Below are positions 4,835 to 19,989 of a stretch of DNA of 64,000 bases, in pieces. The notes under the pieces were generated by a model. That model saw only the letters and a list, made by a program, of their open reading frames with translations. It was not told the DNA's origin and did no database searches. Source of the DNA: an uncultured Actinomycetes bacterium (GTDB lineage Bacteria > Actinomycetota > Thermoleophilia > UBA2241); contig CAVWIH010000014.1 of the NCBI GenBank assembly GCA_963755025.1, positions 378,701 through 442,700 of the forward strand. The letters are read 5' to 3'. The first letter of the stretch is position 1. The number at the start of each line of letters is the position of its first letter. The position numbers and the translations under genes are program-made.

Positions 4835-6301
4835 ATGAAGCGCAATCTGCAGGCGGGGGCGCGACGCAGCGCCTTGCGCCTTGAGGTCTTCACCGAAGCG
4901 GACCTCGACGACATCCACCGCGGGACACTCGAGATCCTCGAGCGCACCGGCGTGTTCGTCGAAAGCGACGAGGCCCTCGACGTGATGGCCGACGGCGGCT
5001 GCCGGGTCGATCGCGAGACCAAGATCGTCAAGATCCCGCCGTACATCGTCGAAGACGCCATCCGCTGGTCGCCGAGCACGGTGACGCTCTGCGGGCGCGT
5101 GCCCGAGAACGACGTGGTGCTCGAAGGCGGCCGCGTCGGCTTCACCAACTTCAGCGCCGGCATCATGGTCATCGACCCGCGCACCGACGAGTACCGCAAG
5201 TCGACCACGCAAGACGTCGCCGACCTCGCGCTCATCACCGACTACCTGAGCGAGATCGACACCTACGAGCACTCCGTCGAGGGCCGCGACGCGCCCGAAG
5301 AGACGCTGGCCGTGCGCGACACGGCGCTCGCCTTGAAGAACACGACCAAGTGCGTCGGCACCGGCGCGCTCTCCACCTACGACGTCGACGCCATCGTGGC
5401 CATGGGCGCCGCGGTGGCCGGCGGCGAAGACAAGCTGCGCGAACGGCCGCTCGTCTACTTCTGCGAGTGCCCGGTCAGCCCGCTCAAGATCACCCGCGAC
5501 GCCGCCGAGGTCATCATGGGCGCCGCCCGCCACGGCTTGCCCAACAACGTGATCTCCATGGCCATGGCCGGCGCGTCGTCGCCGGTCACCCTGGCCGGCA
5601 CGCTGGTCACCCACAACTGCGAGGTGCTCGCCAGCCTCACGCTGGCGCAGCTCACCGAGCGCGGCGCGCCGACCATCTACGGCTCGTCGACCACCGCCAT
5701 CGACCTGCGGCTCGCCGCGGCGTCGGTCGGCTCTCCCGAGCTCGGCCTGCTCAGCGCCAGCGTGGCGCAGCTCGCGCAACGTTACATGCTGCCCAGCTTC
5801 GTAGCCGGGTTATAGGCAGACTCCAAGCTCAGTGACATCCAGGCCGGTCACGAGAAGACCCTGACCGCCCTCATGGCAGCGTTGGCAGGCGCCAACCTGA
5901 TCTACGGGGCGGGGATGACCGAGTCGGGTGTCACCTTCGATTACGCGCAGTACGTGCTCGACAACGACATGGCGAGAATGATCAAGAAGACGGTGGCGGG
6001 CATCTCCGTCACCGACGAGAACCTCGACCTTGCCGACATCCACGCCGTGGGCTCGTTCGGCGACTACCTGTCGCTCGACTCCACGCTCAAGCACATGCGC
6101 GAGCTCAGTCAGCCGCGGTTCATGGACCGTCGCGTCCGCGAGGACTGGCAGGCCATGGGCGCCAAGGACGCCTACTCCGCCGCCAAGGAGGCGGCGAAGC
6201 AGATCCTTGACGAGCACAAGCCGCTGGCCCTGCCGGGCGAGGTGGCCGACAAGCTCGACGCCATCCTGCACGACGCCGAAGTCCACGGCGGGGTGGTCTG
6301 A
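4835..6301 (+). CDS. mttB: Pyrrolysine-containing trimethylamine:corrinoid methyltransferase (MttB), in-frame TAG at 5813-5815 (Pyl327)
   Basis: ORFs 4835-5815 and 5873-6301 are in one frame separated only by TAG; LPSFVAGL-O-ADSKLSDIQAGHEKT...LAGANLIYGAGM matches the MttB pyrrolysine context; SMAMAGASSPVTLAGTLVTHNCE and IYGSSTT motifs. Confidence 0.95.
5832..5934 (+). other. Long intragenic RNA hairpin downstream of the Pyl UAG (candidate PYLIS-like element)
   Basis: Nested helices 5832-5840/5926-5934, 5845-5850/5916-5921, 5865-5871/5906-5912, apical GTTGGC-aggc-GCCAAC (5881-5896). Confidence 0.55.
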
Positions 6302-6313
6302 GGCCCAGCGTCT

Positions 6314-6358
6314 CAGGGGAGCGGCTTCGGGCTTGCCCGAAGCCGCTCCCCTGTTCTT
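6314..6358 (+). terminator. Intrinsic terminator after mttB
   Basis: 19-bp perfect inverted repeat CAGGGGAGCGGCTTCGGGC-tt-GCCCGAAGCCGCTCCCCTG followed by TTCTT. Confidence 0.85.
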
Positions 6359-6444
6359 CATCGCGCTCGCCACGCGCCGTCGCCGCTCGAGAGGCGGCGC
6401 GGGCTCCCGCGAGCGACCCGCCCGCCGCGACCGGCCGGGCGGCG

Positions 6445-6888
6445 TCAGCTCTGGCTCAGCTTGTCGAGCGCCGACTGCAACGAGGCCTCGTAGGCCTGTG
6501 TCGTGTAGGTGGCTCCTGAGACCCCCTGGATGCTGGCGCTCTGCGCGCTCACCGTCTGCTGCTCCAGCTGCGGCACGGCGACCTGCTCGATCTGCGCCGA
6601 CCTGGGATCGTTCGTGTTGAGGGCGGCGGTCGTGGCCGCGGTGATCTTGCCGTTGGCGACGCTCACCCTGACCTGGATGTCTCCGTAGCGCCCACCGCCG
6701 ATGGCCTCGTCGGTGCCCGTGACCGTCTGCGAGCCGCTCGTGCTCCCCAGGCTCGCCGCCGCAGCTGGTGTGCTCGTGGCGCTCGGCGCCGTCGCCGACG
6801 AGGACGAACCCTCGGGCTTGGGGTGGTAGCCCAGGACGAGCGCCAGACCGGCTCCGGTCGCCACAAGCACGATGATCGCTCGGCGCAT
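6445..6888 (-). CDS. Extracytoplasmic FMN-binding domain protein
   Basis: N-terminal signal/anchor, Ser/Thr/Ala linker, RYGDIQVRVSVANGKIT and IQGVSGATYT flavinylation-type motif. Confidence 0.85.
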   Translation of the reverse strand: MRRAIIVLVATGAGLALVLGYHPKPEGSSSSATAPSATSTPAAAASLGSTSGSQTVTGTDEAIGGGRYGDIQVRVSVANGKITAATTAALNTNDPRSAQIEQVAVPQLEQQTVSAQSASIQGVSGATYTTQAYEASLQSALDKLSQS

Positions 6889-7278
6889 GTCGTGGTCTCC
6901 CTTCCCTGTCGTCGCCGGTGTGCGAGCCGGCGCTCGCGCGCGCCATAGGCACGCCGACCACCGGCGCTTGGCTTTGAGTCTGGCTCATCCTGCCCAGCAG
7001 GGGCTGAGCGTACGCTGAGAGAACACTGAGAATGACGAAGCGCGCCCAATGCGGACGCCTCATGACCGGCGTCGGCAACGGCGCTTTCCCCGTTCGCGGC
7101 GGCCTGCGCCCGTTACGGCGCCACCGCACAAACGACGCTTCTTGCTCAGCTTGTGGTTGTTAACTGCCGATACGGGCCATATAGGCGGTGGCTGGCCACG
7201 GCGTCGTCGTGGCGGCCATCTGTACTAGAGCGCGTACGTTCAGTTGTCGAGACTCGCTCATGAGACCGGGAGCACATC

Positions 7279-7479
7279 GTGGCCAAGGGAACAGTGAAGT
7301 GGTTCAACGCACAAAAAGGGTATGGCTTCATCGAGCAGGCTGACGGAGGCAAAGACGTCTTCGTGCACGTCAACTCACTCGCCGCCGGTGTCGGCACGCT
7401 GGCCGAAGGCCAGACGGTCGAATACCAGGTAGAGGAAGGCCAGAAAGGGCCCCAGGCGGCCGACGTCAGGCCTGCCTGA
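7279..7479 (+). CDS. cspA: Cold-shock protein
   Basis: [18 protein letters not shown]...DVFVH...GQKGPQA. Confidence 0.97.
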
Positions 7480-7511
7480 CCCAAGGTCTCGGTCTAGATC
7501 CCGACACCGCG

Positions 7512-7547
7512 CCCGGCCGGCCCTGCTTCAGGGCCCGGCCGGGTCTT
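7512..7547 (+). terminator. Hairpin after csp gene
   Basis: CCCGGCCGG-CCCTG-ctt-CAGGG-c-CCGGCCGGG followed by TCTT. Confidence 0.6.
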
Positions 7548-7950
7548 CAGCCCCCACACAGCAAGAGGCACAGCGTGGCCGTGGGGCCGGCTGCTACCGG
7601 CCAGAGGCCCCGGCGGGCCGCGCCTTCTCTTCGGCTGGCTCGCTCCACTTCTTCGCGGCGAGCGCCGCGACGCTGCCGGCTACAAGGCTCTGCAGTTGTG
7701 GATACCCCATGACGGACCCCGACTTCGGCTTCTGCGATGCTTCCGCAGCGGACCCTCCGAGAGTGCCGCCGCCGTCATCGCCTTAGCGAGCCCCTTCGCC
7801 CGCTCATACTACTAGCTTACTGCTACCAAAGGCCCGCCGGGCCGTCTCTGGACACATGTTCTACACCCCGCGTCTACGCGACCTGGGTCGTCGGCGCCGT
7901 CAGGCCAGACCAGCCGAGGGCGGCGCCAACGATACGCGGGTCGTTCTGCT

Positions 7951-8712
7951 TCAGCCGTCTACGAGCTGCTGGCCACCGTCGACGTCGTAGGTGGCTCCCG
8001 TGAGCGCGGTGTTGGTCATCAGGTGGACGGCCAGAGCAGCCACGTCGGCGGGGCCGACGACGCGTCCGATGGGCAGCGTGGCGCGCAGCCGGCGGCGGCG
8101 CTCCTCGAGCTCATCGCCGAGGAGCGCCGCCGACAGGCCTGTGTCGACGAAGCCGGGAGCGATCAGATTGACGCGGATGGGGGCGACCTCGAGCGCCAGG
8201 TTGGCGACGAGGGCGGGCATCGCCGCGGTGACCGTCGAGACGATCGCCAATCCCAGGCCGGGACGGCGGGAGCCGGTGCCACCCATGAACACGAGCGAGC
8301 CCCCCGGCCGCACGCGGCCCATGGCGTTGCGGGCGACCTCGAAGGTCAGCATGAGGTGCTCGTCGAGCGCCCGGCGTGTCTGCTCGTAGTCCAGGTCGGC
8401 CAGGCGCCCGTACTTCGGCCGGCCGGCGGTGACCATCACGTGGTCGACCGGCTTGGGCAGCTCCTCAAAGAACCGCCGCAGCGCCGCCGCGTCGGTGGCG
8501 TCGAAGGCCGCGCTGCTGCGCGCCCCCAGTTCGCCCGCGGCCTGCTGCAGACGCCCGGGGTCACGGCCGGTCACAATGACGCCGGCGCCCTCGGCGCCGG
8601 CTCGCCGGCCCACCTCGAAGCCGATGCCGCCACTGCCGCCGATCACGACGACCGTCTGTCCCAGAAGTTCAGGTACGCGCTCGGGCTGCGGCGCGATGTT
8701 TGCTGTGGCCAT
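7951..8712 (-). CDS. Short-chain dehydrogenase/reductase
   Basis: VVVIGGSGGIG nucleotide-binding motif, PIRVNLIAPGFVDT, TGATYDVDGG. Confidence 0.9.
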   Translation of the reverse strand: MATANIAPQPERVPELLGQTVVVIGGSGGIGFEVGRRAGAEGAGVIVTGRDPGRLQQAAGELGARSSAAFDATDAAALRRFFEELPKPVDHVMVTAGRPKYGRLADLDYEQTRRALDEHLMLTFEVARNAMGRVRPGGSLVFMGGTGSRRPGLGLAIVSTVTAAMPALVANLALEVAPIRVNLIAPGFVDTGLSAALLGDELEERRRRLRATLPIGRVVGPADVAALAVHLMTNTALTGATYDVDGGQQLVDG

Positions 8713-8727
8713 GATCTCTCCTTATCG

Positions 8728-10098
8728 TCAGGCGGCCATCGGCGGTCTGACGTCGCTGGCTCCCGACGCCGCCGCGATCTGGCCGCGCAGCGCCTTGAGC
8801 GCATCGACGTAGATCTCCGAGAAGGTCGGGAACGGCTGGATCGTGTCGCGCAGCACGTCGAGCGAGACGCGGGCGCGGATCGCCAGCGTGGCCTGTTGCA
8901 GCCACTCGCCCGCCTCGGGGCCGAGCGCGTAGGCGCCCAGCAGACGTTCGCCGTCGCTCACCAGTGTCAGAAAGCCGTTCTGGTCGGCGGACGCCCTCGT
9001 GTAGGTGGGGGACTTCGCGATCTCAGACACGAGCGCCGTCGCGCTGAAACGCCCGCTCGAAGCGCCCACCGCCGCGGCTTGCGGGTCGGTGTAGACGACG
9101 CGCGGCACGGCCTCGTAGCCGGCCGTGCGCGGCTCGCCCAGGATGTTCGCGGCGACCACCTCGCCCTGGTATTTGCCGACGTGGGTCAGCGGCCAGATGC
9201 CGGTCACGTCGCCGATGGCCCACAGACGGTCGGCGACGCGCAGGTGCGCATCGACCGGTATCCCGTGGCCGTCGGGCTCGATGCCGACGGTCTCGAGGCC
9301 TATCCCGCGCACCCGCGCACGGCGGCCGGTGGCGGCGAGCAGCCGGTCGCCGCGCAGTTCGCGGCCGCCGTCGAGCTCGAGGACATAGTCCGCGCCGTCG
9401 CGCCGCGCGGCGGTCGCGATGGCGGACGGGACGAGCTCGATGCCCTCGCCGCGCAGGGCCTCGCCGAGCGCCTCGCCCAACGGCGCCGCTTCGCGCGAGA
9501 GCAGGTGTGCGGCCCTCTCGACGATCACCGCCTGGCCGCCGAGCCGACGCACGACCTGCGCCATCTCCACGCCGACCGGGCCGCCGCCCAGAACGAGCAG
9601 GCGGCGCGGGATCGCCTTCATCGAGGTCGCCTCGCGGCTCGTCCAGACACCCTCGAGCTCGCGCAGGCCCGGCACGGGCGGCACGACGGCGGCGGCGCCG
9701 TTGGCCAGCACCACGTGATCGGCCGTGTGCCGGACGCCGTCGACCTCGACGACGCCCGGGCCGGCGAGCCGCCCGTTGCCGCGCAGCAGGTCGATGCCGC
9801 GATCGGCCAGCCAGCGCTCCTGCCCCGCGTCGGACCAGTCAGAGACCATGTCGTCGCGCCAGGCAAGCGCCGCTTCGACGTCGACCTCGGCGTTCGCCGC
9901 CGCCTCGCGCGCACCGTGCACCGCCTCGCCGGGCCGCAGCAGCGTCTTCGAGGGGATGCAGGCCCAGTAGGAACACTCGCCGCCCACCAGCTCGCGCTCC
10001 ACGACGGCCACCCGCAGGCCGCCCTCGGCCAGGGCGCCGGCGCAGTGCTCGCCCGGCGCGCCGCCGCCGAGGACGATGACGTCGTAGTCGCTGCTCAT
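8728..10098 (-). CDS. Class I pyridine nucleotide-disulfide oxidoreductase (dihydrolipoamide dehydrogenase-like)
   Basis: GGGAPG FAD motif, [13 protein letters not shown] redox-active disulfide, [11 protein letters not shown] motif; C-terminal QPFPTFSE in place of HPTxSE. Confidence 0.9.
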
Positions 10099-10112
10099 CG
10101 CGGCAGCTCCTT

Positions 10113-10607
10113 TCAGCGGCCGGGAAGCCGCGTCGTGACCTCCTGGAACAGCCAGCCGTTGCCGTCGGGGTCGCTGAACGAGGCGAACGAGCCGTAGCTC
10201 GTGCGCTCGGGCGAGGGCCCGGCGACGCGGCCGGCGACGTGGAACCGGGCGCCGCGCGCGCCTTCGTGGAACACCTCGCTCACCTCGACGCCGCGCGCCG
10301 CCAGGTCGGCGCGCGCGGCCTCGACGTCGGGGACCGCCAGGTACAGGCTCTGGCTCGATCCCGGCGCGGCGGTGGTGAGGCTCTGACCGAACTGGATCGA
10401 ACAGCGAGAGCCAGGGGGCGTGTACTGGACGAGGCGAAAGTCGCCGTCGGCTACGTCGGCGTCGAGCCTCCAGCCGAGGCCCCCGTAGAACTCCTTGGCG
10501 CGATCGACGTCGGAGACCGCGATCACGACCACCTCGAGGTCCACCTCTCCGGCCTTCACCGGCGGAGTGCCCACGGCCCCGTCGCTGCTCCTGGGGACGG
10601 CGCTCAT
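10113..10607 (-). CDS. VOC/glyoxalase family protein
   Basis: [41 protein letters not shown]. Confidence 0.9.
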
Positions 10608-10966
10608 CTCGGGCCCCGTTCCCCTCCGACCCGGTCGCGCCAGTCCCTCGGTGGCCCCGGACTCCAGCCCGGCGGATGGCTGGGCGAGTCCTCGAACTCG
10701 GCCGGCTCCGCGGCGACGTCGTCGGCGTAGCAGTAGACCCAGTCCTCGGCGGGCTCGTAGGACTGGATCACGTGGTGCCCGGTCTCACGGGCATGCGCCG
10801 TCGCGTGGCGGTTGGGCGAGTCGTCGCAACAGCCGATATGACCGCACGTCAGGCAGCGGCGCAGGTGCATCCAGTGCCCGCCGCTCGCCAGGCACTCCAC
10901 GCATCCGGGTCCGCTGGGCTCGACGTCGGGAGACGCCTGAGCGATGTGGTCGCAGGTTTCATCCAT
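10604..10966 (-). CDS. UBP-type zinc finger protein
   Basis: CVEC...[25 protein letters not shown]...[12 protein letters not shown]; start set at MDETCDH. Confidence 0.85.
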
Positions 10967-11120
10967 GGGAGCTACTCCGGGTCCGTCGTCTAGCCGTTCC
11001 AAGTGACATACCCGGCTCTGCCCGGCTCGCGCGATCTCGGCGTTTACGACGGCGGCGTACGCGCCTGACCGGTGGCCGCAGACCCACCGCGCGCGGTCGC
11101 ACGCCGGCCCGGACGCAGGC

Positions 11121-11162
11121 GAAACAAAGCCGCCTGCCCTCTCGAGCGCGGGCAGGCGGCTT
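11121..11162 (-). terminator. Intrinsic terminator ending the mttB-corrinoid-permease operon
   Basis: 13-bp inverted repeat AAGCCGCCTGCCC/GGGCAGGCGGCTT with minus-strand TTTGTTTC tail. Confidence 0.8.
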
Positions 11163-11206
11163 CGGTCACACGGAGCTCTCGGTGGGCCTTCTTGCAGTGA
11201 GAAGCC

Positions 11207-12799
11207 TCAGGCCTCCTCGAGCACCGACGGCGCGGCCACGGCCGCCGGCAGCGCTGCCTCTGTCGCTCCCGAGGTCTCGCCGTCGAGCGCCAGCAGATCG
11301 CTGTCGCTCACGGCGCCGCTCGCGAGGTTGCGCCTGCCGATCAGCCAGAACACCGCGCCGGTGACGAAGAAGAAGCCGAGCGTGCCCAGCGTGACGGTCT
11401 CGAAGAAGACGCGAGAGACTCCCCAACTGGTCTCGATGTCGTAGCTCATCCCCAGCGCGCGATCGAGCAGCCCGGGCCAGAGCAGCGTGATCGCCGTGAG
11501 CACGATGATCGCCTCGGAGAGGATCACGCAGACCCACAGGCCGACGGTGCCGCCCGGCACCCGGAACGGGCGGCGCCGGTCGGGATACTTGCGCCGCAGC
11601 GGGATCACCGAGGGGAGCATGAAGAAGTACATGAGCGCCGTCAGCGAGATGACGAGCGTGACCATGACCGTGAAGAAGCTCTGCAGGCTGCCGCTCGTGA
11701 GCAAGAAGACCAGGGCGACGAAGATCGAGCCGATGACCGCCGAGACCACGTTCATCACGACCGGCGTGCCGGTGCGCCTGGAGAACGTGCCGAGCCACAG
11801 CGGCCCGGCGCCGTCGAGGCCGGCCACCGCCTGCACGCGCACGGCGCCCTGCAGCCAGACGCCGCCGGCGCTGATCACGGTGAGCACGACGAGCGCGCCG
11901 ATGAGGTAGTTGAGCCCCGTGTGCAGGCCACCGTGCAGCACGCCGGCGACCGCGAAGTAGGTGTCGGCGAAGCCGGTCGCGTTCGTGAGCTTACTGGCGG
12001 GGATGACGAGCAGCACACCCAGGATCAGCGAGCCCGTGACGAAGCAGGCCACCAGGCCGGAGCGCAGGATCATGACCGGCACGTCGCGCTGGGCGTTCTT
12101 CATCTCTTCGGCGGCGCCGTTGGAGAGCTCGAACCCTACGAAGAGGAACTGCAGCAGCCCGATCACCGCCAGAAAGCCGGTGACGCTGGGCTTGACCGAC
12201 GACAGGGTCACGGTGCCGGCCGGTTTGCCGTGGCTGATGAGGAAGGCGACGACGAGCACCAGGAAGATGGCCAGCATGAGCAGGCGCACGATCGTGCCGA
12301 GGATGCCGGTCCACTTGCCCCACTTGAGCTCGACGAGCGAGAGGCCCACGATCGCCCACACCACGGCGATGCCCACGACGATCGAAGGCAGCGTGCCCAT
12401 CGGGTTCTTCAGATAGAAGGTGTTGATCGCGGCGACGACCGCCGCCGCCAGCGTGCCGCCCATCCACACCGGGTTGCTCATCCAGTAGAAGACCGAGGTG
12501 AGCGCGCCCGGCAGGCGGCCAAAGGCCATGCGCGGCCACACGTAAGGCCCTCCCTCCACGGGGAAGGTCGAGCCCAGCTCCGCGACGATCATGCCGTAGG
12601 GCACGAGCCACACGAGGAGAATGACGATCAGCCAGAAGAAGGTCTGCCCGAGGCCGTAGGCCGCGGTCACCGCGATCGTGTCGAGGCTGATGAAGGCGGC
12701 GATGGTGAAGAAGACGATGTCGAAGCGCGTCAGGACCTTGCGCATCTTGGCGCGCTCCTGGCCCATCGCACCGGCCGTGGGGTCAGGCAGGGCGCTCAT
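11207..12799 (-). CDS. APC-superfamily amino acid/amine permease
   Basis: 530 aa, AELGSTFPVEGGPYVW, FVGFELSNGAAEEMKNAQRDVP, LRRKYPDRRRPFRVPGG; ATGA overlap with corrinoid gene. Confidence 0.9.
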   Translation of the reverse strand: MSALPDPTAGAMGQERAKMRKVLTRFDIVFFTIAAFISLDTIAVTAAYGLGQTFFWLIVILLVWLVPYGMIVAELGSTFPVEGGPYVWPRMAFGRLPGALTSVFYWMSNPVWMGGTLAAAVVAAINTFYLKNPMGTLPSIVVGIAVVWAIVGLSLVELKWGKWTGILGTIVRLLMLAIFLVLVVAFLISHGKPAGTVTLSSVKPSVTGFLAVIGLLQFLFVGFELSNGAAEEMKNAQRDVPVMILRSGLVACFVTGSLILGVLLVIPASKLTNATGFADTYFAVAGVLHGGLHTGLNYLIGALVVLTVISAGGVWLQGAVRVQAVAGLDGAGPLWLGTFSRRTGTPVVMNVVSAVIGSIFVALVFLLTSGSLQSFFTVMVTLVISLTALMYFFMLPSVIPLRRKYPDRRRPFRVPGGTVGLWVCVILSEAIIVLTAITLLWPGLLDRALGMSYDIETSWGVSRVFFETVTLGTLGFFFVTGAVFWLIGRRNLASGAVSDSDLLALDGETSGATEAALPAAVAAPSVLEEA

Positions 12800-13437
12800 G
12801 TCGTCGACGCAGCAGCGACCAGGGCCTTGGCGCGGTCGACCGCCATGCCGGCGTTGGCGCCGTAGCCGTCGGCGCCCAGCGACTCGGCGAAGGCCTTTGT
12901 GACCGGCGCGCCGCCGACCAGCACCTTGACCTGCTCGCGCAGGCCGGCGTCCTGCAGCGCGGCGATCGTCTCGGCCATGCGCGGCAAGGTGGTGGTGAGC
13001 AGCGCGCTCATGCCGAGGATGGTCGCGTCGTGCTCCTTGACGGCCGCCACGAACTGCTGCGAGGTGACGCCGGTGCCCAGGTTGACGACCGTGAAGCCGG
13101 CGCCCTGCAGCAGCATGCCGACCAGGTTCTTGCCGATGTCGTGCAGGTCGCCTTCGACCGTGCCGATCACCACGGTGCCCAGGCCCCCGCTATCGCCGGC
13201 CCCGAGGTGCGGCTTCAAGATGTCGAGCGCGCCCTGCATGGTGCGCGCGCTGAGCAGCACTTCGGGAATGAAGCAGTCGCCCGAGCGCATGCGCTCGCCG
13301 ACCACGTCCATGCCGGGCAGCAGCGCGTCGTCCAGGATCTCGCGAGCCGGGGCGCCGCTCGCCAGCAGCGCCTGGGTGAGGGCGTTGACCGTGTCGGCGT
13401 TGCCGGCGATCAGCGCCTGCGTGAGTTGCTCTTTCAT
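12796..13437 (-). CDS. Methyltransferase cognate corrinoid protein (MttC/MtbC-like)
   Basis: Cap domain LLPGMDVVGERM...FIPEVLLSARTM; B12-binding GTVEGDLHDIGKNLV, SALLTTT, VGGAPVT. Confidence 0.95.
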   Translation of the reverse strand: MKEQLTQALIAGNADTVNALTQALLASGAPAREILDDALLPGMDVVGERMRSGDCFIPEVLLSARTMQGALDILKPHLGAGDSGGLGTVVIGTVEGDLHDIGKNLVGMLLQGAGFTVVNLGTGVTSQQFVAAVKEHDATILGMSALLTTTLPRMAETIAALQDAGLREQVKVLVGGAPVTKAFAESLGADGYGANAGMAVDRAKALVAAASTT

Positions 13438-13509
13438 CTGTCCCCCTTGGGCAGCCGGCTCGAGCGGGCGAGCCGGCTGCAGTGTCCTTGCAGTCCGCCG
13501 GCGATGCGC

Positions 13510-14983
13510 TCAGGCGACGCCGACCAGCCGGTCCGTCTGCTCGACGATGGCGTGCATGCGCGCGGCGATGTCGTCGGGGATGGGCTCGGGCCGATACTCG
13601 CGCACGACGTCGCGCGCCTTTTCGAGGCAGCGTGGTGTAGAGCTCCTTGGAGCCGCGCGCGTCCCACTCCTCGCGCACGCGGCGATCGAGGAACTGCGGC
13701 TGGCTGAGCTCGCGCATGTGGAGCAGCGTGGCGTCGAGCGAAAGGAAGTCCCCGAACGGACCGACCTGCACGATGTCCTCCACCGCCAGCGTCTCGTCGT
13801 TGACCCGCACTCCACCGACCACGCGCTTGATCATGCGCGCGAACTCGTTGTCCATGACGAACTGTCCGCAATCGAAGGTGACTCCCGACTCGATCATCCC
13901 CGCACCGTAGATCAGGTTGGCCCCTGCCAACGCTGCCATGATTCCGGTGAGGGTCTTCTCGTGCCCGACCTGGGCGTCACCGAGCTTGGCATCCGTCTAT
14001 AACCCGGCGACGAAGCTCGGCAGCAGGTAGCGCCGCGCCATCTGGGTCACCGCCGCGCTGATCATGGCGAGCTCGGGCGAGCCCACGCAGGCAGCCGCGA
14101 GCTTCAGGTCCATGGCCGTCGTGGACGACCCGTACATCACCGGGCAGCCACGCTCGGTGAGCTGCGCCAGCGTGATGCCCGAGAGCACCTCGGCGTTGTG
14201 GGTGACCAGGGTGCCGGCCAGGGTGACCGGCGAGGAGCCGCCCGCCATGGCCATGCTCAGGATGTTGTTGGGGATCCACCAGCGCGACGTCTCGATGATC
14301 ACCTGGGTGGCGTCGCGCGGCAGCTTGAGGGGGCTCACCGGGCAGACGCCGCCGTAGAGGATGGGGCGGCGGCGCAGCTCGTCGGCGCCGCCGACGACCT
14401 CGGCCGCCATCTCGAAGATCGCCCTCGCCTCGATCCGCGACAGCGGTCCTATGCCGATCGGCTTGGTCGTGTTCAGGAGCTGCGCCTCGGTGTGGTGGAC
14501 GGCGGCGGTCTCGGGCGGCACGTCGCTCGCTCCCACGGCGGTCTCGTGGGTGTCGATCTCGCTCAAGTAGTCGTTGAGACGGGCGATGTCGGCGATGTCC
14601 TTCTTGGTCGAGTTACGATACTCGCCGGTCTCGACGTCGATGACCCTGATGCCTTCGCTGAAGTTGGTGAAGGCCACGCGACCCGGCTCCATGACGAAGT
14701 CGTTCTTGGGGTTGTTGCGGCCGTACAGCACGTACCGGCTGGGCGCGGAGCGGATGGCGTCGTCGACCACATGCGGCGGAAAGCGCACGATATGCGTGTC
14801 GCGGTCGACCATGCAGCCGCCGTCGGAGTAGATGTCGAGCGCCTCGTCGTCTTCGACGAAGACACCGGCACGCTCGAGGACTTCGAGACTGGCGAAGTGG
14901 ATCTCCTCGAGCTCGGATTCGGTGAACACGTTGACGCTGAGGCCGCCGCTGCGCGGCCGGCCGGCGAAGAGGTTGCGTTTCAC
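13510..14983 (-). CDS. mttB: Second pyrrolysine-containing MttB, in-frame TAG at 13999-13997 (Pyl329); 1-bp frameshift near 13630
   Basis: GTG start; [43 protein letters not shown]; C-terminus LEKARDVVREYRPEPIPDD...VGVA in shifted frame ending 13510. Confidence 0.93.
13877..13981 (-). other. Long intragenic RNA hairpin downstream of the second Pyl UAG
   Basis: Minus strand GGTGAC-g-CCC pairs with GGG-a-GTCACC; CACCG/CGGTG; ATCA/TGAT; apical GTTGGC-aggg-GCCAAC (13931-13916). Confidence 0.55.
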
Positions 14984-15020
14984 ACTGCACCACCCCCTGG
15001 AACACGTCGTAGGGATTTAC

Positions 15021-15068
15021 TTAGTTACATAACTAACGGTACAGTATCAGATGGTCGAAGGCTGTCAA
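15021..15068 (-). promoter_or_regulatory. mttB operon promoter with palindromic operator
   Basis: TTGACA (15068-15063), 16-nt spacer, TACTGT; perfect palindrome TTAGTTA-CA-TAACTAA (15021-15036) just downstream of the -10. Confidence 0.8.
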
Positions 15069-15171
15069 GACCTCACGGTCACGCCGCGAGTGGCGCGCCC
15101 GGAGGCCGATGGATATCCTCTGGGTAGTCACCGTACGGGGCTCCTCGGGGGCCGACGAAGGGAAGCCGAGC

Positions 15172-15807
15172 TTGACGAGGTACGAGATACCGATCGAGGA
15201 CCCGGCGCCGCATCTGGCGCCGACCGCGGCGCGCATCCTCGACGCCGCCAAACGCGTGCTGGCCCGCGACGGTTTTCGCGCGCTCACCTTCGTCAACATC
15301 GCCGACGAGGCCGCCGAGAACCCGGCCCTCATCCGTTATCACTTCGGCAACAAGGCCGGCCTCATCGCGACGCTCGTCGACTCGGTCCTCTACCTCGAGA
15401 GCCTCGACTTGATCGAGAAGCTCACCAGCGTGCCGCCCGGCGACGAGCGCCGCCGCGCCCTGTTCGCGCTCCACCAGACCTACACCAAAGACCTCGAGGG
15501 CTACCAGCTGTTCTACGAGCTCGTGCCGCACATCTTGCGCGACCCCGAGCTACGGCCACACCTGAGCGCCCTGTTCGACTGGTATCGCAAGCTCGACGCC
15601 TGGGCCCTGGGCGCGCAGCCCGGCACCGAGCACCCGGCGCAGCTCGAACCGCTGGCACTGCTCAGCGTCGCGCTCGCCGACGGCGTCGCTCTGCAGGTCC
15701 AGGTCGACCCCGACCTCGACGTCGGCCCCGCCTTCGAGATCTGGCGCGGGCTGATCCTGAGCTATCTCGACGGCGCCGCCGGCGGCGGCGCACCGCCGCA
15801 ACCCTAA
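15172..15807 (+). CDS. TetR/AcrR family transcriptional regulator
   Basis: ILDAAKRVLARDGFRALTFVNIADEAAENPALIRYHFGNKAGL HTH; start set at TTG 15172 after GAAGGGAAG (ORF track starts 15109); divergent from mttB. Confidence 0.9.
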   Translation: MTRYEIPIEDPAPHLAPTAARILDAAKRVLARDGFRALTFVNIADEAAENPALIRYHFGNKAGLIATLVDSVLYLESLDLIEKLTSVPPGDERRRALFALHQTYTKDLEGYQLFYELVPHILRDPELRPHLSALFDWYRKLDAWALGAQPGTEHPAQLEPLALLSVALADGVALQVQVDPDLDVGPAFEIWRGLILSYLDGAAGGGAPPQP

Positions 15808-17291
15808 CGCAGCTCCTGGTCGGCGGCGGCGACGATGCGCCGCAGCTCCCGTACCTTGTCGTCGGCAAGCGGCGTGGGCACGTAGTGCTCGAGAATATCG
15901 AGCCCGCGCTCGCGAGCGACCTCGACGGGGTTGCGGTAGTGGACGCCGTCGGGGCCGATCTCCTGTCCGATCGAGCGCTCGACGGTCTCTTTCATGTGCC
16001 GCCGGGTATGCGGCTGACCCAAAAAGTGCCCGCCCGGCCCCACCGCGTCGATCACGTCGAGGGCCAGCGTCTCCTCGTCTAACTCGACGTCCTTGAAGGC
16101 GTTGGCGGCGCGGTGGTAGAGGTCGTCGTCGAGCATCATGTGCTCGGGGGTGAACAGCTGATAGCGATTGGTGAGGCCGATCGTGGTCATGAGCTCCGAG
16201 CCGACGAGGCTCGCCACCATCAGCGTGTGCGCCGTCTCGGCGGCGGCCAGCCAGGTGCCCGGCAGGTCGTCGTCTGTGCCAGCGTACCCGCTCATCGCCG
16301 GCAGGCCGAAGTGGTGCACCAGCTCGGTCGGCAGGAAGAGGCCGCGATGGTTGAGCGGCGCCGTCGTCAGCGCGGCCGTGCGCGGATCGGCGTGCACCGG
16401 CAACGGAAAGAGGATCACCGGCGCGCCCGGGTGGGCGAGCTGGATGAGCACGGTGGCGCTGATGAGCTCGGCGAAGCCCATGACGTAGGCGCCGGCCTTG
16501 GTCGCCGGCGCCGTGGTGCCGAAGGTCGGCATGGTCACGAAGCACACCGGAATGCCGGCCTCGGCAAAGACGAGGGCCGCTTCGATCCCGTCCTTGTCGT
16601 TGACCAGCGGCTGCACGGTGCCGATCAGGTCGCTCATCGGCGGCCGGCGCCGCAGCTCCTGCGGGCCGCCGGCGACGACCGTCGCCATCTCCACGGCGTA
16701 GCGCGCCTCGCGCTCGCCCTGGACCATACCCTGGAGGTGCTTGCCGGTGTTGTTCCAGGCCGCCTCCAGCTCGTGCAGCGTGTGCGTGTCGCCGCAGTCG
16801 GCGGCGGCCACGTTCGGCCACCAGAACTGCAGCGAACCGAGGTAGTCGATCATGCGGGTGATGGCTTCGAGGTCTGTCTTGGTCGGCTGGCGGCGCACGC
16901 CGTCGTGCCAGTCGATGACCTCGGTGCCGCAGCCGTTGGTGGTGTTGAAGGTGTCGCCGCCGGCGAGGTCGAGGTCGCGCTCGCCGTCGCGCGAGCCCAG
17001 CCAGAAGTCGCGCGGCGCGCTCGCCAGGGCGCGCGTCACCAGGTCGGGCGAGAGGCGCGCGATCCCCGTGGCGCGGTCGACGCGCGCGCCGTGCTCCTCG
17101 AGGATGGCGAGCGTCTTGGGCGAGGCGAAGCGCACGCCGGTGCGCTCCAGCACCTGCAGCACCGCGTCTTTGTAGCGGTCGAGTCGCGCGCGGTCGTAAA
17201 AGGTCGCCTTGAAGTCGGAGCGCAGCGGCAGGAGTGGTTGCGGCCGGCTGAGGTCGAGGTGGGAACGGCCGAGGTCGAGTTGGCTAGTCAT
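15804..17291 (-). CDS. Non-pyrrolysine MttB-superfamily methyltransferase (about 495 aa)
   Basis: LQVLERTGVRF, PTFGTTAPATKAG, QLAHPGAPV, LALDVIDAVGPGGHFLGQPHTRRH; no TAG at the Pyl-equivalent site (FGLPAMSGYAGTDD); ATG overlaps mtbB TGA (ATGA 17291-17288). Confidence 0.9.
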   Translation of the reverse strand: MTSQLDLGRSHLDLSRPQPLLPLRSDFKATFYDRARLDRYKDAVLQVLERTGVRFASPKTLAILEEHGARVDRATGIARLSPDLVTRALASAPRDFWLGSRDGERDLDLAGGDTFNTTNGCGTEVIDWHDGVRRQPTKTDLEAITRMIDYLGSLQFWWPNVAAADCGDTHTLHELEAAWNNTGKHLQGMVQGEREARYAVEMATVVAGGPQELRRRPPMSDLIGTVQPLVNDKDGIEAALVFAEAGIPVCFVTMPTFGTTAPATKAGAYVMGFAELISATVLIQLAHPGAPVILFPLPVHADPRTAALTTAPLNHRGLFLPTELVHHFGLPAMSGYAGTDDDLPGTWLAAAETAHTLMVASLVGSELMTTIGLTNRYQLFTPEHMMLDDDLYHRAANAFKDVELDEETLALDVIDAVGPGGHFLGQPHTRRHMKETVERSIGQEIGPDGVHYRNPVEVARERGLDILEHYVPTPLADDKVRELRRIVAAADQELR

Positions 17292-18688
17292 GACGTCACT
17301 CCCGTCAGGGTCGTGTGGCGCTTGAAACACTCCACCGAGTTCACCGGCACGTCGAGCGTCTCTGCGATATGGAACTTGGCCGCGATGGCGCCGGGCTGGT
17401 CGGGGTAGGTCAGGTCCTGCACCGGGATGCGGCCAAGTCCGAAGTCGCGGCGCAGGTCGTGCATGGCGATCGTGTCGCTCAAGTCGAGCACCGAGCAGCC
17501 GAGCTTCTCGGCGACGTAGCGCTTGGCCTGCGGGAGACGCATGCCTCGGGTGATCTGCATGCGGGCTACCAGGTCTCCGGCGGTCCGCATTCCGCCCATA
17601 CCCGAGGCGAGCGCGTGAGTGGAGGCTATCCCCAAAGGATCCCCCACGCCTACCTACAAGCCGTCGAGCTTGAGGATGTCGACCAGCGCGCGTGAGGCGC
17701 GCGACGTGGCGTCGACCGGAGGGTAGGGGCTCATCGGCACGCCGCCCACACCCATGCCGGCGTTCATGTGGACGGGGATGGTCGCCTCGGCGGTCACCGG
17801 CTTCACGAGCGCGCAAGCGCGCGCCGTGTTCCAGGCCAGCGACTTGGTGGTGTTCACGTTGACCGCCGGACCGAAGATCGTGGCGCCGGCCGCCGTGACG
17901 GCGCGCAGCTGGTCGAGCGGCCACATGCCGGCGAGGCGGCGGCCCTCGTACTCGAGCTCGCCGTGCATGCCGAGCACGAGCTCGCCGGCCTGGCCGACCT
18001 CGACCCCGATGTCGGGCCAGCGATCGCGGACCTGCCTGACGACCCGCAGCGTAGCCAGCAGGTCGGCGTCGCCGGCCGCGCCGGCCGTGTCGAAATCGAG
18101 GCCGTCGGCGCCGGCCGCGATCATGGTCTCGGCGACGATCAGCATGTCGTGCTCAAGGAGGCCGACGGCCTCTTCCTGGGCGCGGCGCGCTTCTTCGATC
18201 TTGCCCAGGGGCAGCAGCTGCGACCAGTTGTCGGCGGGGCCGTCGGGCTTCGAATAGCGGCCGAGGTCGGGCATGGCGCCGTAGTTCAGAGGGACCACCG
18301 TCTGCAGTTGGGCGTCCTTCATCATCTGCGCCTGAAACGAGAGCACGGTGCGCACGGCCTTGTAGGAGTAGTCGAGGTGCCAGAGCTCGAGCGAGTCGGC
18401 GCCGTGGTGGTTCTGGTAGACGAGCTGCTCGGTGACCGGATGCCCCAGGTCGCCGTTGCCGGCACCGTCGAAGCTGAGCACGACCTCGTCGCCGTAGTCG
18501 ACCGCGGTGAACTTCGATGGCGAGGTGAAGATGTCCAACAGGTGCGCGAGCTCGTCGGCGGCGAGCGGCTCCACCTTGGCGCGCCGCACCGCGGCCGCGA
18601 CTCCGGCCTCGAGGTCGGCCTCGATCTCGGCCGGCGTCATCTCGGCAAGGGAGCCGTCTCCGAGGCGTGTGGGTATGCGATGCGCCAT
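17288..18688 (-). CDS. mtbB: Pyrrolysine-containing dimethylamine:corrinoid methyltransferase (MtbB), in-frame TAG at 17656-17654 (Pyl345)
   Basis: ORFs 17654-18688 and 17288-17647 are in frame; HMNAGMGVGGVPM...[37 protein letters not shown] matches the MtbB pyrrolysine context; DFDTAGAAGDADL, IFGPAVNVNTTKS. Confidence 0.95.
17543..17647 (-). other. Two intragenic hairpins downstream of the mtbB Pyl UAG
   Basis: Proximal GTGGGGG-ATCCT-ttg-GGGAT-ag-CCTCCAC (17647-17619); distal perfect 9-bp GCCTCGGGT/ACCCGAGGC enclosing ATGCGG/CCGCAT and GCCGG-agac-CTGGT (17608-17543). Confidence 0.5.
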
Positions 18689-18864: not shown

Positions 18865-19989
18865 CTACACGCGCGCCAGGCCGGCTCCCTCGACGAGGGA
18901 GCGCAGCTTGGCCCACGCCACGGTCGGGGTGACCTGAGGCCGGCCGACGAACGTACCGAAACCGCAGTCCGTACCCGCCACCACGCGCTCCGCCCCGACC
19001 ACCGAGGCGAACCGCTCGAGGCGCTGGGCGACCAGTTCGGGGTGCTCGACGAAGTTCGAAGTCGAGTCGATCACGCCGGGTATCAGGTACTTGCCCTCGG
19101 GCAGCGGCCGCCCGGCGAACACGGTCCACTCGTGACCGTGACGAGGGTTGCTGGCCTCGATCGACAGGCCGAGCGGCGTTGCGTCGAGCACGACGTCGAT
19201 GATGTCGGCCAGGGGGACGTCGTGCGTGTGGGGGCCTTCGTAGTTGCCCCAGCACAGATGCAGGCGCATGCGTTCGGGGGAGATGCCGCGCGTCGCGTGG
19301 TTGAGCGCCTCGACGTTGAGCGCGATGTCGCGGCGGAACTCCTCGAGACTGAGGCCGGCGAAGACCGTGTGTCTGCCGGCCGCCAGGTCGGGACAATCGA
19401 GCTGCAGCGTCACGCCGGCATCGACGATCGCTTCGTACTCCGGCCTCATCGCCTCGGCGAGCGCGCCGAGGTACTGCTCGCGATCGCCGTAAAAGCGGTC
19501 CTCGAAGAAGAGCGCGATCACGCCGGGCGAGGCGGCCGTCATGAACAGCTGGCCCATGTCTGCGCCGGCCGCGCTCGCCGCGGCGCGCAGGTTCTCGAGG
19601 TCGCGCCCCACGGCCTCGTCGTCGCGCCGCCGCACCGGCCCAGTGCAGGCCGGCGTGCGCACCTGCAACCCGCTCAAGACGAGGCCCATGCGCTCGGCGT
19701 CGTCGGGAAAGTCGGCAAGCTCGGCCAACGGCGAGAGGCCGCCGGGCTCTCCTGCGAAGCCGGTCAGGCGGTCCTTGATGTACGTCGAGTAGCCGACCTT
19801 GCTCTGTTCGCCGTCGTTTACGATGTCGAGCCCGATCTCGGCCTGAAGGCGCACGGCCTCGGCGACCGCGGCCGTCACTCGCTGCTCGAGTCCGGCGGGC
19901 GTCCCACCTTCGTCGCGCTCGACGACCATCGCCGCGAGGTCGGCCGGCCGGGGCAGGCTGCCGGTATGTGTCGTGAGAATGCTTGCCAC
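18865..19989 (-). CDS. Cobalamin-independent methionine synthase II family protein (single catalytic barrel, MetE/XecA-like)
   Basis: TTHTGSLPRP, DGEQSK, LQLDCPDLA, Zn ligands HLCWGN and TDCGF; 374 aa, no N-terminal folate-binding barrel; GGAGG RBS before GTG. Confidence 0.9.
   Translation of the reverse strand: MASILTTHTGSLPRPADLAAMVVERDEGGTPAGLEQRVTAAVAEAVRLQAEIGLDIVNDGEQSKVGYSTYIKDRLTGFAGEPGGLSPLAELADFPDDAERMGLVLSGLQVRTPACTGPVRRRDDEAVGRDLENLRAAASAAGADMGQLFMTAASPGVIALFFEDRFYGDREQYLGALAEAMRPEYEAIVDAGVTLQLDCPDLAAGRHTVFAGLSLEEFRRDIALNVEALNHATRGISPERMRLHLCWGNYEGPHTHDVPLADIIDVVLDATPLGLSIEASNPRHGHEWTVFAGRPLPEGKYLIPGVIDSTSNFVEHPELVAQRLERFASVVGAERVVAGTDCGFGTFVGRPQVTPTVAWAKLRSLVEGAGLARV

What the first reader, a model, noticed from the sequence alone, without database searches (positions are those of the whole stretch)
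4835..18688. Three pyrrolysine-encoding methylamine methyltransferases in a high-GC, actinobacterium-like genome
Two mttB paralogs (TAG 5813-5815; 13999-13997) and one mtbB (TAG 17656-17654) each have one in-frame amber codon. Each falls exactly at the pyrrolysine site known from Methanosarcina MttB and MtbB, with conserved sequence continuing after it. Together with a corrinoid protein, permeases and a regulator, this implies anaerobic TMA to DMA to MMA demethylation using the 22nd amino acid. Pyrrolysine is best known from methanogens and some Firmicutes and Deltaproteobacteria. The surrounding genes look actinobacterial (inference). Standard annotation would split or pseudogenise all three genes. 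pylTSBCD, mtmB, a RamA-type activase and a corrinoid:THF methyltransferase are not in this window.
Basis: partly seen in the sequence, partly recalled or inferred. Interest (0 to 1): 0.85.

Follow-up and report, generated by a model that had tools for sequence, protein, structure and literature searches.

The report
Pyrrolysine methylamine methyltransferases in a Thermoleophilia genome
A soil or peat actinobacterium of the class Thermoleophilia carries genes for breaking down trimethylamine and dimethylamine that need the rare 22nd amino acid pyrrolysine; the genes are real, but this has already been reported for its close relatives.

Summary
Two mttB genes and one mtbB gene each carry one in-frame TAG at the family's pyrrolysine site. 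All three pass NCBIfam equivalog cut-offs and match Rfam PYLIS models that start on the TAG.

The TAG is kept in 107 of 108 mtbB copies and 34 of 35 Pyl-type mttB copies from 64 related loci. Sequence after it is under purifying selection.

The closest relative is MAG bog_752 (93% identity). Its genus is classed as Thermoleophilia, order UBA2241.

No pyl genes lie in the window. One related Thermoleophilia MAG has pylSc beside a TAG-bearing mtbB, and NCBI names PylS in Thermoleophilia MAGs.

- mttB2 has a 1-base insertion near 13630 that breaks its last 36 or so codons. This is either a mutation or an assembly error.
- A fourth, non-Pyl MttB-family gene lies at 15804-17291.
- The trait is already published for Actinobacteriota MAGs, including genus Bog-752 (PMC10805028), and PylRS for two Actinobacteria (PMC9630628).

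One result seems new. The codon before the TAG is almost always the rare Leu codon TTG or TTA.

Verdict: a new member of a known kind, of moderate interest.

The parts
4835..6301 (+). mttB1, a pyrrolysine-type trimethylamine:corrinoid methyltransferase, 488 aa. The in-frame TAG is at 5813-5815 (codon 327), preceded by the rare codon TTA.
   Evidence: 670.6 bits against cut-off 525; 7XCM E 8.5e-110; codon 327 aligns with Pyl334
5813..5912 (+). Rfam PYLIS_3 match starting on the TAG of mttB1. Synonymous sites here are largely frozen across relatives.
   Evidence: (77.3 bits)
2330..3841 (+). APC-family permease upstream of mttB1; a candidate methylamine or amine transporter (inferred).
11207..12799 (-). 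APC-family permease, the last gene of the mttB2-mttC-permease unit. It is conserved next to mttC in relatives.
   Evidence: (62-87% identity in 6 of the 15 closest loci)
12796..13437 (-). mttC-like corrinoid (B12-binding) protein, 213 aa.
   Evidence: B12-binding and B12-binding_2; pyl_corrinoid 184 bits, MtbC 190 bits, MtgC_2 219 bits; all below the equivalog cut-offs
13510..14983 (-). mttB2, a pyrrolysine-type TMA methyltransferase with TAG at 13999-13997 (codon 329). It is frame-broken by one extra base at about 13630. The true C-terminus, in another frame, ends at TGA 13512-13510.
   Evidence: most relatives listed show one alignment gap against the window; the printed L001 and L003 alignments place it at this site; in-frame part 649.6 bits
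13900..13999 (-). Rfam PYLIS_3 match starting on the TAG of mttB2.
   Evidence: 74.6 bits
15109..15807 (+). TetR/BetI-type regulator. It is divergent from mttB2 (125-bp gap) and convergent with the non-Pyl mttB homologue.
   Evidence: 60-82% identity in 14 of the 15 closest loci
15804..17291 (-). Non-pyrrolysine MttB-superfamily methyltransferase. Gly stands at the Pyl column. Its ATG overlaps the mtbB stop (ATGA), and it ends in TAG. The substrate is unknown.
   Evidence: MTTB 196 bits; nearest solved relative is MtgB, 9YCE/2QNE; 271.9 bits, below 525
17288..18688 (-). mtbB, a pyrrolysine-type dimethylamine:corrinoid methyltransferase, 466 aa. The TAG is at 17656-17654 (codon 345), preceded by TTG.
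   Evidence: 527.6 bits; 422.3 bits against 369.1
17557..17656 (-). Rfam PYLIS_2 match starting on the TAG of mtbB. Its 3' hairpin, 69-97 nt after the TAG, is supported by covariation in 92 homologues.

Best explanation
The window comes from a high-GC bacterium of the class Thermoleophilia (Actinomycetota), close to MAG bog_752. It encodes a corrinoid-dependent system for demethylating methylamines. The substrate-activating enzymes, MttB for trimethylamine and MtbB for dimethylamine, need pyrrolysine inserted at a single UAG.

Proposed mechanism:
1. An APC-type permease imports the amine.
2. MttB or MtbB binds the amine to the pyrroline ring of pyrrolysine and passes one methyl group to the Co(I) corrinoid of the MttC-like protein.
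3. An enzyme not encoded here passes the methyl group on.
4. A TetR/BetI-type repressor, divergent from mttB2, controls the unit.

The UAG is decoded by a Pyl-tRNA/PylS system encoded elsewhere in the genome. It competes with termination, because TAG is still an ordinary stop codon in this genome.

Shown here: gene identity, the position and conservation of the TAG, translation of the sequence downstream of it, the conserved gene module, and PylSc in a related MAG. Inferred: the substrates, an anaerobic lifestyle, the fate of the methyl group, and the presence of pyl genes in this particular genome.
For: Gene identity and the Pyl site:
- NCBIfam equivalog cut-offs are passed by all three genes.
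- Rfam PYLIS_3, PYLIS_3 and PYLIS_2 start on the three TAGs.
- MttB1 codon 327 aligns with Pyl334 of the M. barkeri MttB structure.
- The Tyr364 and Met249 equivalents are kept in both window copies, and in 34 of 34 and 31 of 31 Pyl-type relatives.

The TAG is read through:
- TAG is kept in 107 of 108 mtbB matches and 34 of 35 Pyl-type mttB matches across 64 loci.
- For mtbB, dN/dS after the TAG is 0.11-0.22, against 0.08-0.24 before it. For mttB2 it is 0.14-0.38, against 0.12-0.26.

Context and taxonomy:
- The module mtbB, non-Pyl mttB, tetR, mttB, mttC, permease recurs in the 15 closest loci: mtbB in 15, tetR, mttB2 and the non-Pyl mttB in 14, mttC in 7 and the permease in 6, at 60-93% identity.
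- 59 of 64 loci, from 45 MAG isolates by my count, are labelled Actinomycetota, Thermoleophilia or Actinomycetes. The best is bog_752 at 93%. Genus Bog-752 is Thermoleophilia, order UBA2241 (supplement).

Pyl machinery in the clade:
- Locus L026 is from a Thermoleophilia MAG, on a 1.14-Mb contig. It has a PylSc gene at 11668-12525, scoring 314 bits against cut-off 178, convergent with a TAG-bearing mtbB.
- More than 1900 PylSc-like proteins were found. 118 of the 120 listed have a high-GC composition. Two of those listed are named by NCBI as the PylS large subunit of a Thermoleophilia MAG and of an Actinobacteria MAG.

Literature:
- PMC10805028 (passages) reports expression of Pyl-type mttB and mtbB by Actinobacteriota MAGs.
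- PMC9630628 (passage) reports PylRS in two Actinobacteria.
Against: - No pylT, pylS, pylB, pylC or pylD lies in the 64-kb window. The rest of this genome could not be searched.
- Among the 59 actinobacterial loci, only L026 shows a pyl gene within 10 kb of mtbB. No pylT was found in L026.
- ARAGORN also missed any pylT near PylSc in L023, so its silence carries little weight.
- mttB2 is frame-broken here.
- No methylcorrinoid:acceptor methyltransferase, RamA-type activase or mtmB lies in the window.
- TAG ends 7 of 38 Pfam-supported genes, so read-through must be partial or regulated.
- The Gly110 equivalent, called fully conserved in PMC9842639, is Ser in both window MttBs.
- No protein-level evidence exists for pyrrolysine in any actinobacterium, as far as my searches reached.
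Confidence: 0.87

Rival explanations
1. The three genes are decaying relics. The lineage once decoded pyrrolysine but this organism has lost the pyl genes, so translation stops at UAG and the products are inactive fragments.
For: No pyl genes lie in the window. mttB2 carries a frameshift, and an amt gene at 101-1541 is also frame-broken. This could mean gene decay.
Against: dN/dS after the TAG is as low as before it in comparisons with four relatives. The TAG and the frozen synonymous sites around it are kept. The frameshift is unique to this sequence in the alignments with relatives and may be an assembly error. mttB1 and mtbB are intact.
Confidence: 0.05
2. The UAG is read through, but by something other than Pyl-tRNA: a standard amino acid from a suppressor or near-cognate tRNA.
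For: No pylT was seen in any of the 60 loci scanned, nor in the window. TAG remains a common stop codon.
Against: PylSc is present beside mtbB in a related MAG, and is widespread in high-GC metagenome proteins. The active-site partners of pyrrolysine, the Tyr364 and Met249 equivalents, are kept only in the TAG-bearing copies. The non-Pyl paralogues show that when pyrrolysine is given up the codon becomes a sense codon. The tRNA genes next to mtbB paralogues are ordinary tRNA-Thr.
Confidence: 0.04
3. The in-frame TAGs are sequencing or assembly artefacts in otherwise ordinary genes.
For: The assembly holds at least two frame-broken genes.
Against: The same codon is TAG in 107 of 108 and 34 of 35 homologous copies from independent assemblies.
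Confidence: 0.01

Closest known systems
Methanosarcina barkeri MttB (PDB 7XCL/7XCM; PMC9842639) with its corrinoid protein MttC
   Same: Full-length alignment at E 8.5e-110. The UAG aligns with Pyl334. The Tyr364 and Met249 equivalents are kept. A corrinoid protein gene follows mttB2.
   Different: The host is bacterial and high-GC. The Gly110 equivalent is Ser. The residue before Pyl is Leu, encoded by a rare codon, where the archaeal enzyme has Ser. No MT2, RamA or pyl genes lie nearby.
mtbB/mttB clusters of Thermoleophilia MAGs (locus L001 from MAG bog_752; genus Bog-752, order UBA2241), reported as expressing Pyl-type mttB and mtbB in PMC10805028
   Same: The same gene order (mtbB, non-Pyl mttB, tetR, mttB, mttC, permease) at 81-93% protein identity, with TAG at the same sites.
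   Different: The flanks differ. The window has an additional mttB1 locus and a frameshift in mttB2. dS is about 0.3-0.5, so this is a different species.
Desulfitobacterium hafniense MtgB, a non-Pyl glycine betaine methyltransferase (PDB 2QNE/9YCE)
   Same: It is the nearest solved relative of the fourth gene, 15804-17291 (E 9e-48). Both lack the UAG.
   Different: The relationship is distant, and the substrate of the window's protein is unknown. Here the gene is translationally coupled to a Pyl-type mtbB.
Bacterial pyrrolysine systems of Bacillota and Deltaproteobacteria (split PylSn plus PylSc; PMC9630628)
   Same: The related MAG locus L026 has a stand-alone PylSc of bacterial length (285 aa). 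TAG stays in use as a stop codon.
   Different: In L026, pylSc sits alone beside mtbB, with no pylT or pylBCD within 10 kb. That the classical clusters are contiguous is recalled, not tested here.

Membership tests
MttB, pyrrolysine-type trimethylamine:corrinoid methyltransferase (NCBIfam TIGR02369) | Score at or above the curated equivalog cut-off (525 bits) | tested here: met
   MttB1 scores 670.6 bits. The in-frame part of MttB2 scores 649.6 bits.
MttB, pyrrolysine-type trimethylamine:corrinoid methyltransferase (NCBIfam TIGR02369) | In-frame UAG at the position of Pyl334 of M. barkeri MttB | tested here: met
   Codon 327 aligns with chain residue 334 of 7XCM. Pyl334 is named in PMC9842639. 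MttB2 codon 329 falls in the same alignment column.
MttB, pyrrolysine-type trimethylamine:corrinoid methyltransferase (NCBIfam TIGR02369) | Active-site Tyr364 and Met249 | tested here: met
   Y357 and M242 in MttB1, and the same alignment columns in MttB2. Relatives have Y in 34 of 34 and M in 31 of 31 copies.
MttB, pyrrolysine-type trimethylamine:corrinoid methyltransferase (NCBIfam TIGR02369) | Gly110, in a cis Gly-Thr peptide, stated to be 100% conserved in Pyl-MttBs (PMC9842639) | tested here: not met
   The aligned residue is Ser in both window copies. Among 31 related Pyl-type copies it is S in 14, G in 12 and D in 5. The role described is for a main-chain carbonyl, so this counts against the 'invariant' claim more than against membership.
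MttB, pyrrolysine-type trimethylamine:corrinoid methyltransferase (NCBIfam TIGR02369) | Intact reading frame to the family's C-terminus | tested here: inconclusive
   MttB1 is intact. MttB2 has one extra base near 13630 relative to its relatives. A real mutation cannot be told from an assembly error without reads.
MtbB, pyrrolysine-type dimethylamine:corrinoid methyltransferase (TIGR02368, PF09505) | Score at or above the curated cut-offs, over the full length | tested here: met
   422.3 bits against 369.1, with model positions 1-465 of 466 matched. Pfam scores 527.6 bits.
MtbB, pyrrolysine-type dimethylamine:corrinoid methyltransferase (TIGR02368, PF09505) | In-frame UAG at the family's Pyl site | tested here: met
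   Rfam PYLIS_2 model positions 1-3 (UAG) fall on 17656-17654. The same column is TAG in 107 of 108 homologous copies. No solved structure exists to compare with.
Pyrrolysine-decoding organism | pylT, pylS (Sn and Sc) and pylBCD in the same genome | not testable with these tools
   All are absent from the window, and the rest of the genome was not available. In relatives, PylSc was found in 1 of 59 actinobacterial loci (L026). NCBI-named Thermoleophilia PylS proteins exist.
Pyrrolysine-decoding organism | Pyrrolysine shown in the protein | not testable with these tools
   This needs mass spectrometry.
Non-pyrrolysine MttB superfamily (MtgB-like quaternary amine methyltransferases) | MTTB fold, no UAG, and a sense codon at the Pyl column | tested here: met
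   Gene 15804-17291: Pfam MTTB 196 bits, Gly at the Pyl column, and a score below the TMA equivalog cut-off.
Rfam PYLIS_2 / PYLIS_3 elements | Match above the gathering score, starting at the UAG | tested here: met
   73.7-77.3 bits against 36-38. The 3' hairpin of PYLIS_2 has 96.3% of cells paired, and 71 double-change cells against 19.4 in shuffles (0 of 500 shuffles reach the observed value). Whether it promotes Pyl insertion was not tested.

The most novel reading that the evidence does not exclude
Thermoleophilia of anoxic soils, peat and sediments are a large, overlooked reservoir of pyrrolysine decoding. Two things point this way. First, 45 species-level MAGs carry up to four TAG-bearing mtbB paralogues per 21-kb locus. 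Second, TAG remains a common stop codon in this genome, yet the UAG sits in a selected mRNA context: a rare UUG or UUA Leu codon immediately before it, and frozen synonymous sites and hairpins after it. This context may act as a recoding signal that favours Pyl-tRNA over release factor 1.
Probability: 0.25. Interest if true: 0.7.

Novelty: new member of a known kind. Interest (0 to 1): 0.42.

Why it matters
It confirms, gene by gene, that pyrrolysine-dependent methylamine use reaches into Actinomycetota, and shows that it is common in one class. I found TAG-bearing mtbB in 45 species-level MAGs, against the 'two Actinobacteria' listed in the 2022 PylRS survey.

These bacteria would compete with methylotrophic methanogens for TMA and DMA in peat and wetland soils. 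That bears on methane budgets.

Standard annotation truncates these genes, so their abundance is undercounted.

The biased codon before the UAG, in a genome that still uses UAG as a stop, offers a simple and testable handle on an open question: how bacteria tell a Pyl codon from a stop codon.

Tried and rejected
Linking pyl genes to this genome:
- I compared the contig lengths of the PylSc hits with those of my loci. The only match was L026 itself.
- The protein-atlas search gave a weak lead only: one PylSc-like cluster, score 0.92, with Actinomycetota as its commonest phylum.

Looking for pylT and pyl genes near mtbB:
- ARAGORN on the window and on 60 loci found no tRNA with a CUA anticodon.
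- An Rfam E-value scan of L026 found none either.
- ARAGORN also found nothing beside PylSc in L023, so this absence is weak evidence.
- NCBIfam on 89 and then 84 representative ORFs from the loci found PylSc in one cluster only (L023 and L026), and no PylB, PylC or PylD. ORFs under 100 aa, such as pylSn, and singleton ORFs under 180 aa were not scanned.

Ideas rejected:
- The recurrent tRNA genes beside mtbB paralogues might have been suppressor tRNAs. Their sequences are canonical tRNA-Thr with UGU or CGU anticodons.
- The MetE-like gene at 18865-19989 might have been the methyl acceptor enzyme of the module. It has no counterpart next to mtbB in any of the 64 loci, so this remains an unsupported lead.
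- Several recurrent 'unknown' ORF clusters in the loci had no Pfam hit. They are probably antisense ORFs of a high-GC genome.

Literature:
- Searches for pyrrolysine with Thermoleophilia, Actinomycetota, or Actinobacteria plus mttB or pylS found no paper that describes pyl genes, or Pyl peptides, of Thermoleophilia.
- I did not open the supplements of PMC9630628, which name its two Actinobacteria.

Full report
**What is there**

The window is about 69% G+C throughout. Reading TAG as a residue joins three pairs of split ORFs into full-length genes:
- mttB1, 4835-6301 (+), 488 aa, TAG at codon 327.
- mttB2, starting at 14983 (-), TAG at codon 329.
- mtbB, 18688-17288 (-), 466 aa, TAG at codon 345.

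Pfam assigns MTTB (316 and 294 bits) and Dimeth_Pyl (528 bits). The curated NCBIfam equivalog cut-offs are passed: 670.6 and 649.6 bits against 525, and 422.3 bits against 369.1. Rfam's PYLIS_3 (twice) and PYLIS_2 match at about twice their gathering scores, with the model's first three positions, UAG, on the three TAGs.

MttB1 aligns end to end with the solved M. barkeri MttB (7XCM, E 8.5e-110). Its codon 327 falls on chain residue 334, which is Pyl334 according to PMC9842639 (passages read). No MtbB structure exists for comparison.

**Is it more than chance?**

Of these, 59 are labelled Actinomycetota, Thermoleophilia or Actinomycetes, from 45 different MAG isolates by my count of the table. 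The best is MAG bog_752 at 93% identity.

In those loci the codon aligned with the window's TAG is TAG in 107 of 108 mtbB matches. The exception is a frame-broken copy in L062. It is also TAG in 34 of 35 mttB matches of at least 49% identity, the exception being a frame glitch in L008. All 87 more distant MttB-family matches have sense codons.

Against four orthologues, mtbB has dN/dS of 0.11-0.22 after the TAG and 0.08-0.24 before it. Against three orthologues, mttB2 has 0.14-0.38 after and 0.12-0.26 before. The downstream part is therefore translated in frame and kept by selection.

1. mttB2 is frame-broken. After 'SKELYTT' the frame runs into Arg-rich nonsense across mttC. The true C-terminus lies in another frame and ends at TGA 13512-13510. 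Most of the relatives listed show one alignment gap against the window, and the printed L001 and L003 alignments place it at this site, at about 13630. The insertion is therefore specific to this sequence. An amt gene at 101-1541 (-) is also split between two frames, and some related MAG loci show frame-broken copies. An assembly indel is thus at least as likely as a real mutation. I cannot decide without reads.

2. Between tetR and mtbB lies a fourth MttB-family gene, 15804-17291 (-), scoring 196 bits on Pfam MTTB. It has no TAG and has Gly at the Pyl column. It falls below the TMA equivalog cut-off, and its nearest solved relative is the glycine betaine enzyme MtgB. Its ATG overlaps the mtbB stop codon (ATGA), which suggests coupled translation.

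3. The genes form a conserved module in two units: mtbB with the non-Pyl mttB, and mttB2, mttC and an APC permease, with tetR divergent from mttB2. Its parts recur among the 15 closest loci at 60-93% identity: mtbB in 15, tetR, mttB2 and the non-Pyl mttB in 14, mttC in 7 and the permease in 6. The flanking genes and the mttB1 locus do not recur.

**Who is it?**

The supplement of PMC10805028 classifies genus Bog-752 as Actinobacteriota, Thermoleophilia, order UBA2241. PMC7438021 (passages) describes UBA2241 MAGs as coming from a thawing permafrost gradient and from lake hypolimnia. The window's proteins are 81-93% identical to those of bog_752, with dS of about 0.3-0.5. It is therefore a related but different species. 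The order assignment is an inference from the nearest relative.

**Where is the pyrrolysine machinery?**

It is not in the window:
- ARAGORN finds no tRNA.
- Pfam on 31, 26 and 18 ORFs finds no PylS, PylB, PylC, PylD, RamA, MtmB or pterin-binding methyltransferase.
- tblastn with three PylSc proteins finds nothing.

Among the loci, PylSc appears in L023 (a Dehalococcoidales MAG) and in L026. L026 is from a Thermoleophilia MAG, on a 1.14-Mb contig. There a 285-aa PylSc, scoring 314 bits against a cut-off of 178, lies tail to tail with a TAG-bearing mtbB. No pylT or pylBCD lies within 10 kb.

Searching with high-GC PylSc proteins gave more than 1900 relatives. Of the 120 listed, 118 have a high-GC amino-acid composition. 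Two of those listed carry NCBI names: pyrrolysine--tRNA(Pyl) ligase large subunit of a Thermoleophilia MAG and of an Actinobacteria MAG. The clade therefore has the synthetase. For this particular genome that remains an inference.

**How it most likely works**

Established knowledge of the MttB/MttC and MtbB/MtbC systems (PMC9842639) gives the chemistry. Pyrrolysine's imine binds the amine, and the methyl group goes to Co(I) of the corrinoid protein. The window supplies the two substrate-specific methyltransferases, one corrinoid protein, permeases and a repressor.

The window does not hold the enzyme that takes the methyl group from the corrinoid, the reductive activase, or mtmB. A RamA/AcsV-like activase does occur in 7 related loci. 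A MetE-like gene at 18865-19989 sits just upstream of mtbB but is not conserved there in relatives. I do not count it as part of the system.

**Decoding context**

TAG ends 7 of 38 Pfam-supported genes in the window, including the non-Pyl mttB right after mtbB. UAG is therefore ambiguous, as in other Pyl bacteria.

Two features suggest selection on the mRNA around the Pyl codon.

1. The codon before the TAG is TTA in both mttB genes and TTG in mtbB.
   - In the high-GC mtbB copies, the preceding residue is Leu in 84 of 105, and 81 of those 84 use TTG. The 21 other conserved Leu columns of the same alignment use TTA or TTG in 38 of 1965 cases.
   - In Pyl-type mttB, 31 of 31 preceding Leu codons are TTG, against 53 of 867 elsewhere.
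   - The window as a whole uses TTA 4 times and TTG 57 times in 1108 Leu codons.
   - The copies are related, so these counts are not independent. The other Leu columns share the same phylogeny, however, and have drifted to CTC or CTG.

2. Synonymous sites after the TAG are frozen, including codons that are rare for this G+C content. In mtbB, a hairpin 69-97 nt downstream has 96.3% of cells paired, with 71 double-change cells against 19.4 in shuffles (0 of 500 shuffles reach it). Slid controls pair at 31-48%. This hairpin is the 3' stem of Rfam PYLIS_2, so it is known. I found no mention of the codon bias before the UAG in the papers I read. The one paper on PYLIS that I searched (PMC3639795, passages) considers downstream sequence only.

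**Comparison with the known, and novelty**

[quoted passage not shown] Its main text and the five supplement files held never mention pylS, pylB or pylT.
- PMC9630628 (passage) counts PylRS in two Actinobacteria, a figure repeated in PMC11764691.

The finding is therefore a new member of a known kind. This analysis adds the following:
- The breadth of the trait in Thermoleophilia: 45 MAG isolates and up to four mtbB copies per locus.
- A direct link between pylSc and mtbB on one Thermoleophilia contig.
- The conserved module that includes a non-Pyl paralogue.
- Departure from the 'invariant' Gly110: Ser in both window copies, and S 14, G 12, D 5 among 31 relatives.
- The rare codon before the UAG.

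**Limits**

- The rest of the genome, the metagenome and viral contig collections, and cluster membership look-ups were not available.
- No tree with archaeal or Bacillota references was built, so nothing can be said about the donor.
- pylSn-sized ORFs (under 100 aa) were not scanned in the loci.

Noticed in passing
window 5810-5815, 13997-14002, 17654-17659; loci L001-L064: The codon just before the Pyl TAG is a rare Leu codon: TTA in both mttB genes and TTG in mtbB. Across high-GC relatives it is TTG in 81 of 84 (mtbB) and 31 of 31 (mttB) Leu codons. Other conserved Leu columns of the same genes use TTA or TTG in only 1.9% and 6.1% of cases.
   Followed up: partly
window 13620-13640 (-): mttB2 has one extra base relative to its relatives. 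This shifts the frame about 36 codons before the true stop at 13512-13510. It is either a real mutation or an assembly error.
   Followed up: partly
window 15804-17291 (-): A fourth MttB-family gene without TAG, with Gly at the Pyl column. Its start overlaps the mtbB stop (ATGA) and it is conserved in this position in 14 of the 15 closest loci. Its substrate is unknown.
   Followed up: partly
window 101-1541 (-): An ammonium transporter gene is split between two frames. Pfam profile positions 1-76 fall in one frame and 80-399 in another. A second, intact amt gene lies at 51159-52466.
   Followed up: partly
window 5813-5917 (+) and 13895-13999 (-); alignment A3: The roughly 100 nt after the mttB TAG are nearly invariant at synonymous sites across 34 copies, including rare codons (GGT, GCA, TTG). 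A GCGUUGGC...GCCAAC hairpin is predicted but never varies, so covariation cannot support it.
   Followed up: partly
window 5150-5160 (MttB1 residues 104-109) and the equivalent in MttB2: The residue aligned with Gly110 of M. barkeri MttB, reported as 100% conserved, is Ser in both window copies. Among 31 related Pyl-type copies it is S in 14, G in 12 and D in 5.
   Followed up: partly
window, 38 Pfam-supported genes: TAG is an ordinary stop codon for 7 of 38 genes (TGA 29, TAA 2). In the six cases that could be followed, the next in-frame stop lies 13-53 codons further on. Pyl read-through would therefore lengthen these proteins.
   Followed up: partly
loci L004, L012, L015, L025, L053 and others: mtbB is heavily multiplied in Thermoleophilia MAGs: up to four TAG-bearing copies within 21 kb, in several sequence groups of about 60% identity. 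L004 holds a duplicated block of about 7.6 kb. The paralogues may have different substrates.
   Followed up: no
loci L011, L013, L014, L025, L042-L044, L047, L050 and others: A canonical tRNA-Thr(UGU) gene lies within a few hundred bases of one mtbB paralogue group, and a tRNA-Thr(CGU) gene lies 5-8 kb upstream of the window-type group. This may mark an integration site. The window itself has no tRNA gene.
   Followed up: partly
L026:11668-12525 (-): In one Thermoleophilia MAG, pylSc stands alone, tail to tail with mtbB, with no pylT, pylSn or pylBCD within 10 kb. In that genome the pyl genes appear to be scattered.
   Followed up: partly
window 18865-19989 (-): A MetE-like protein (Meth_synt_2 catalytic domain only, 374 aa) lies just upstream of mtbB on the same strand. 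It is not conserved there in relatives. It could be a methylcorrinoid-using methyltransferase, but this is an unsupported lead.
   Followed up: partly
loci L041 and L060: Two contigs labelled Deltaproteobacteria carry mtbB and mttB copies of the Thermoleophilia sequence type (60-62% identity, with the same motifs around the TAG). This points to mis-binning or to transfer.
   Followed up: no
loci L034, L038 and others: Recurrent neighbours of mtbB in relatives are a RamA/AcsV-like corrinoid activase (7 loci) and a KamA-type lysine 2,3-aminomutase (6 loci). Neither is in the window.
   Followed up: no
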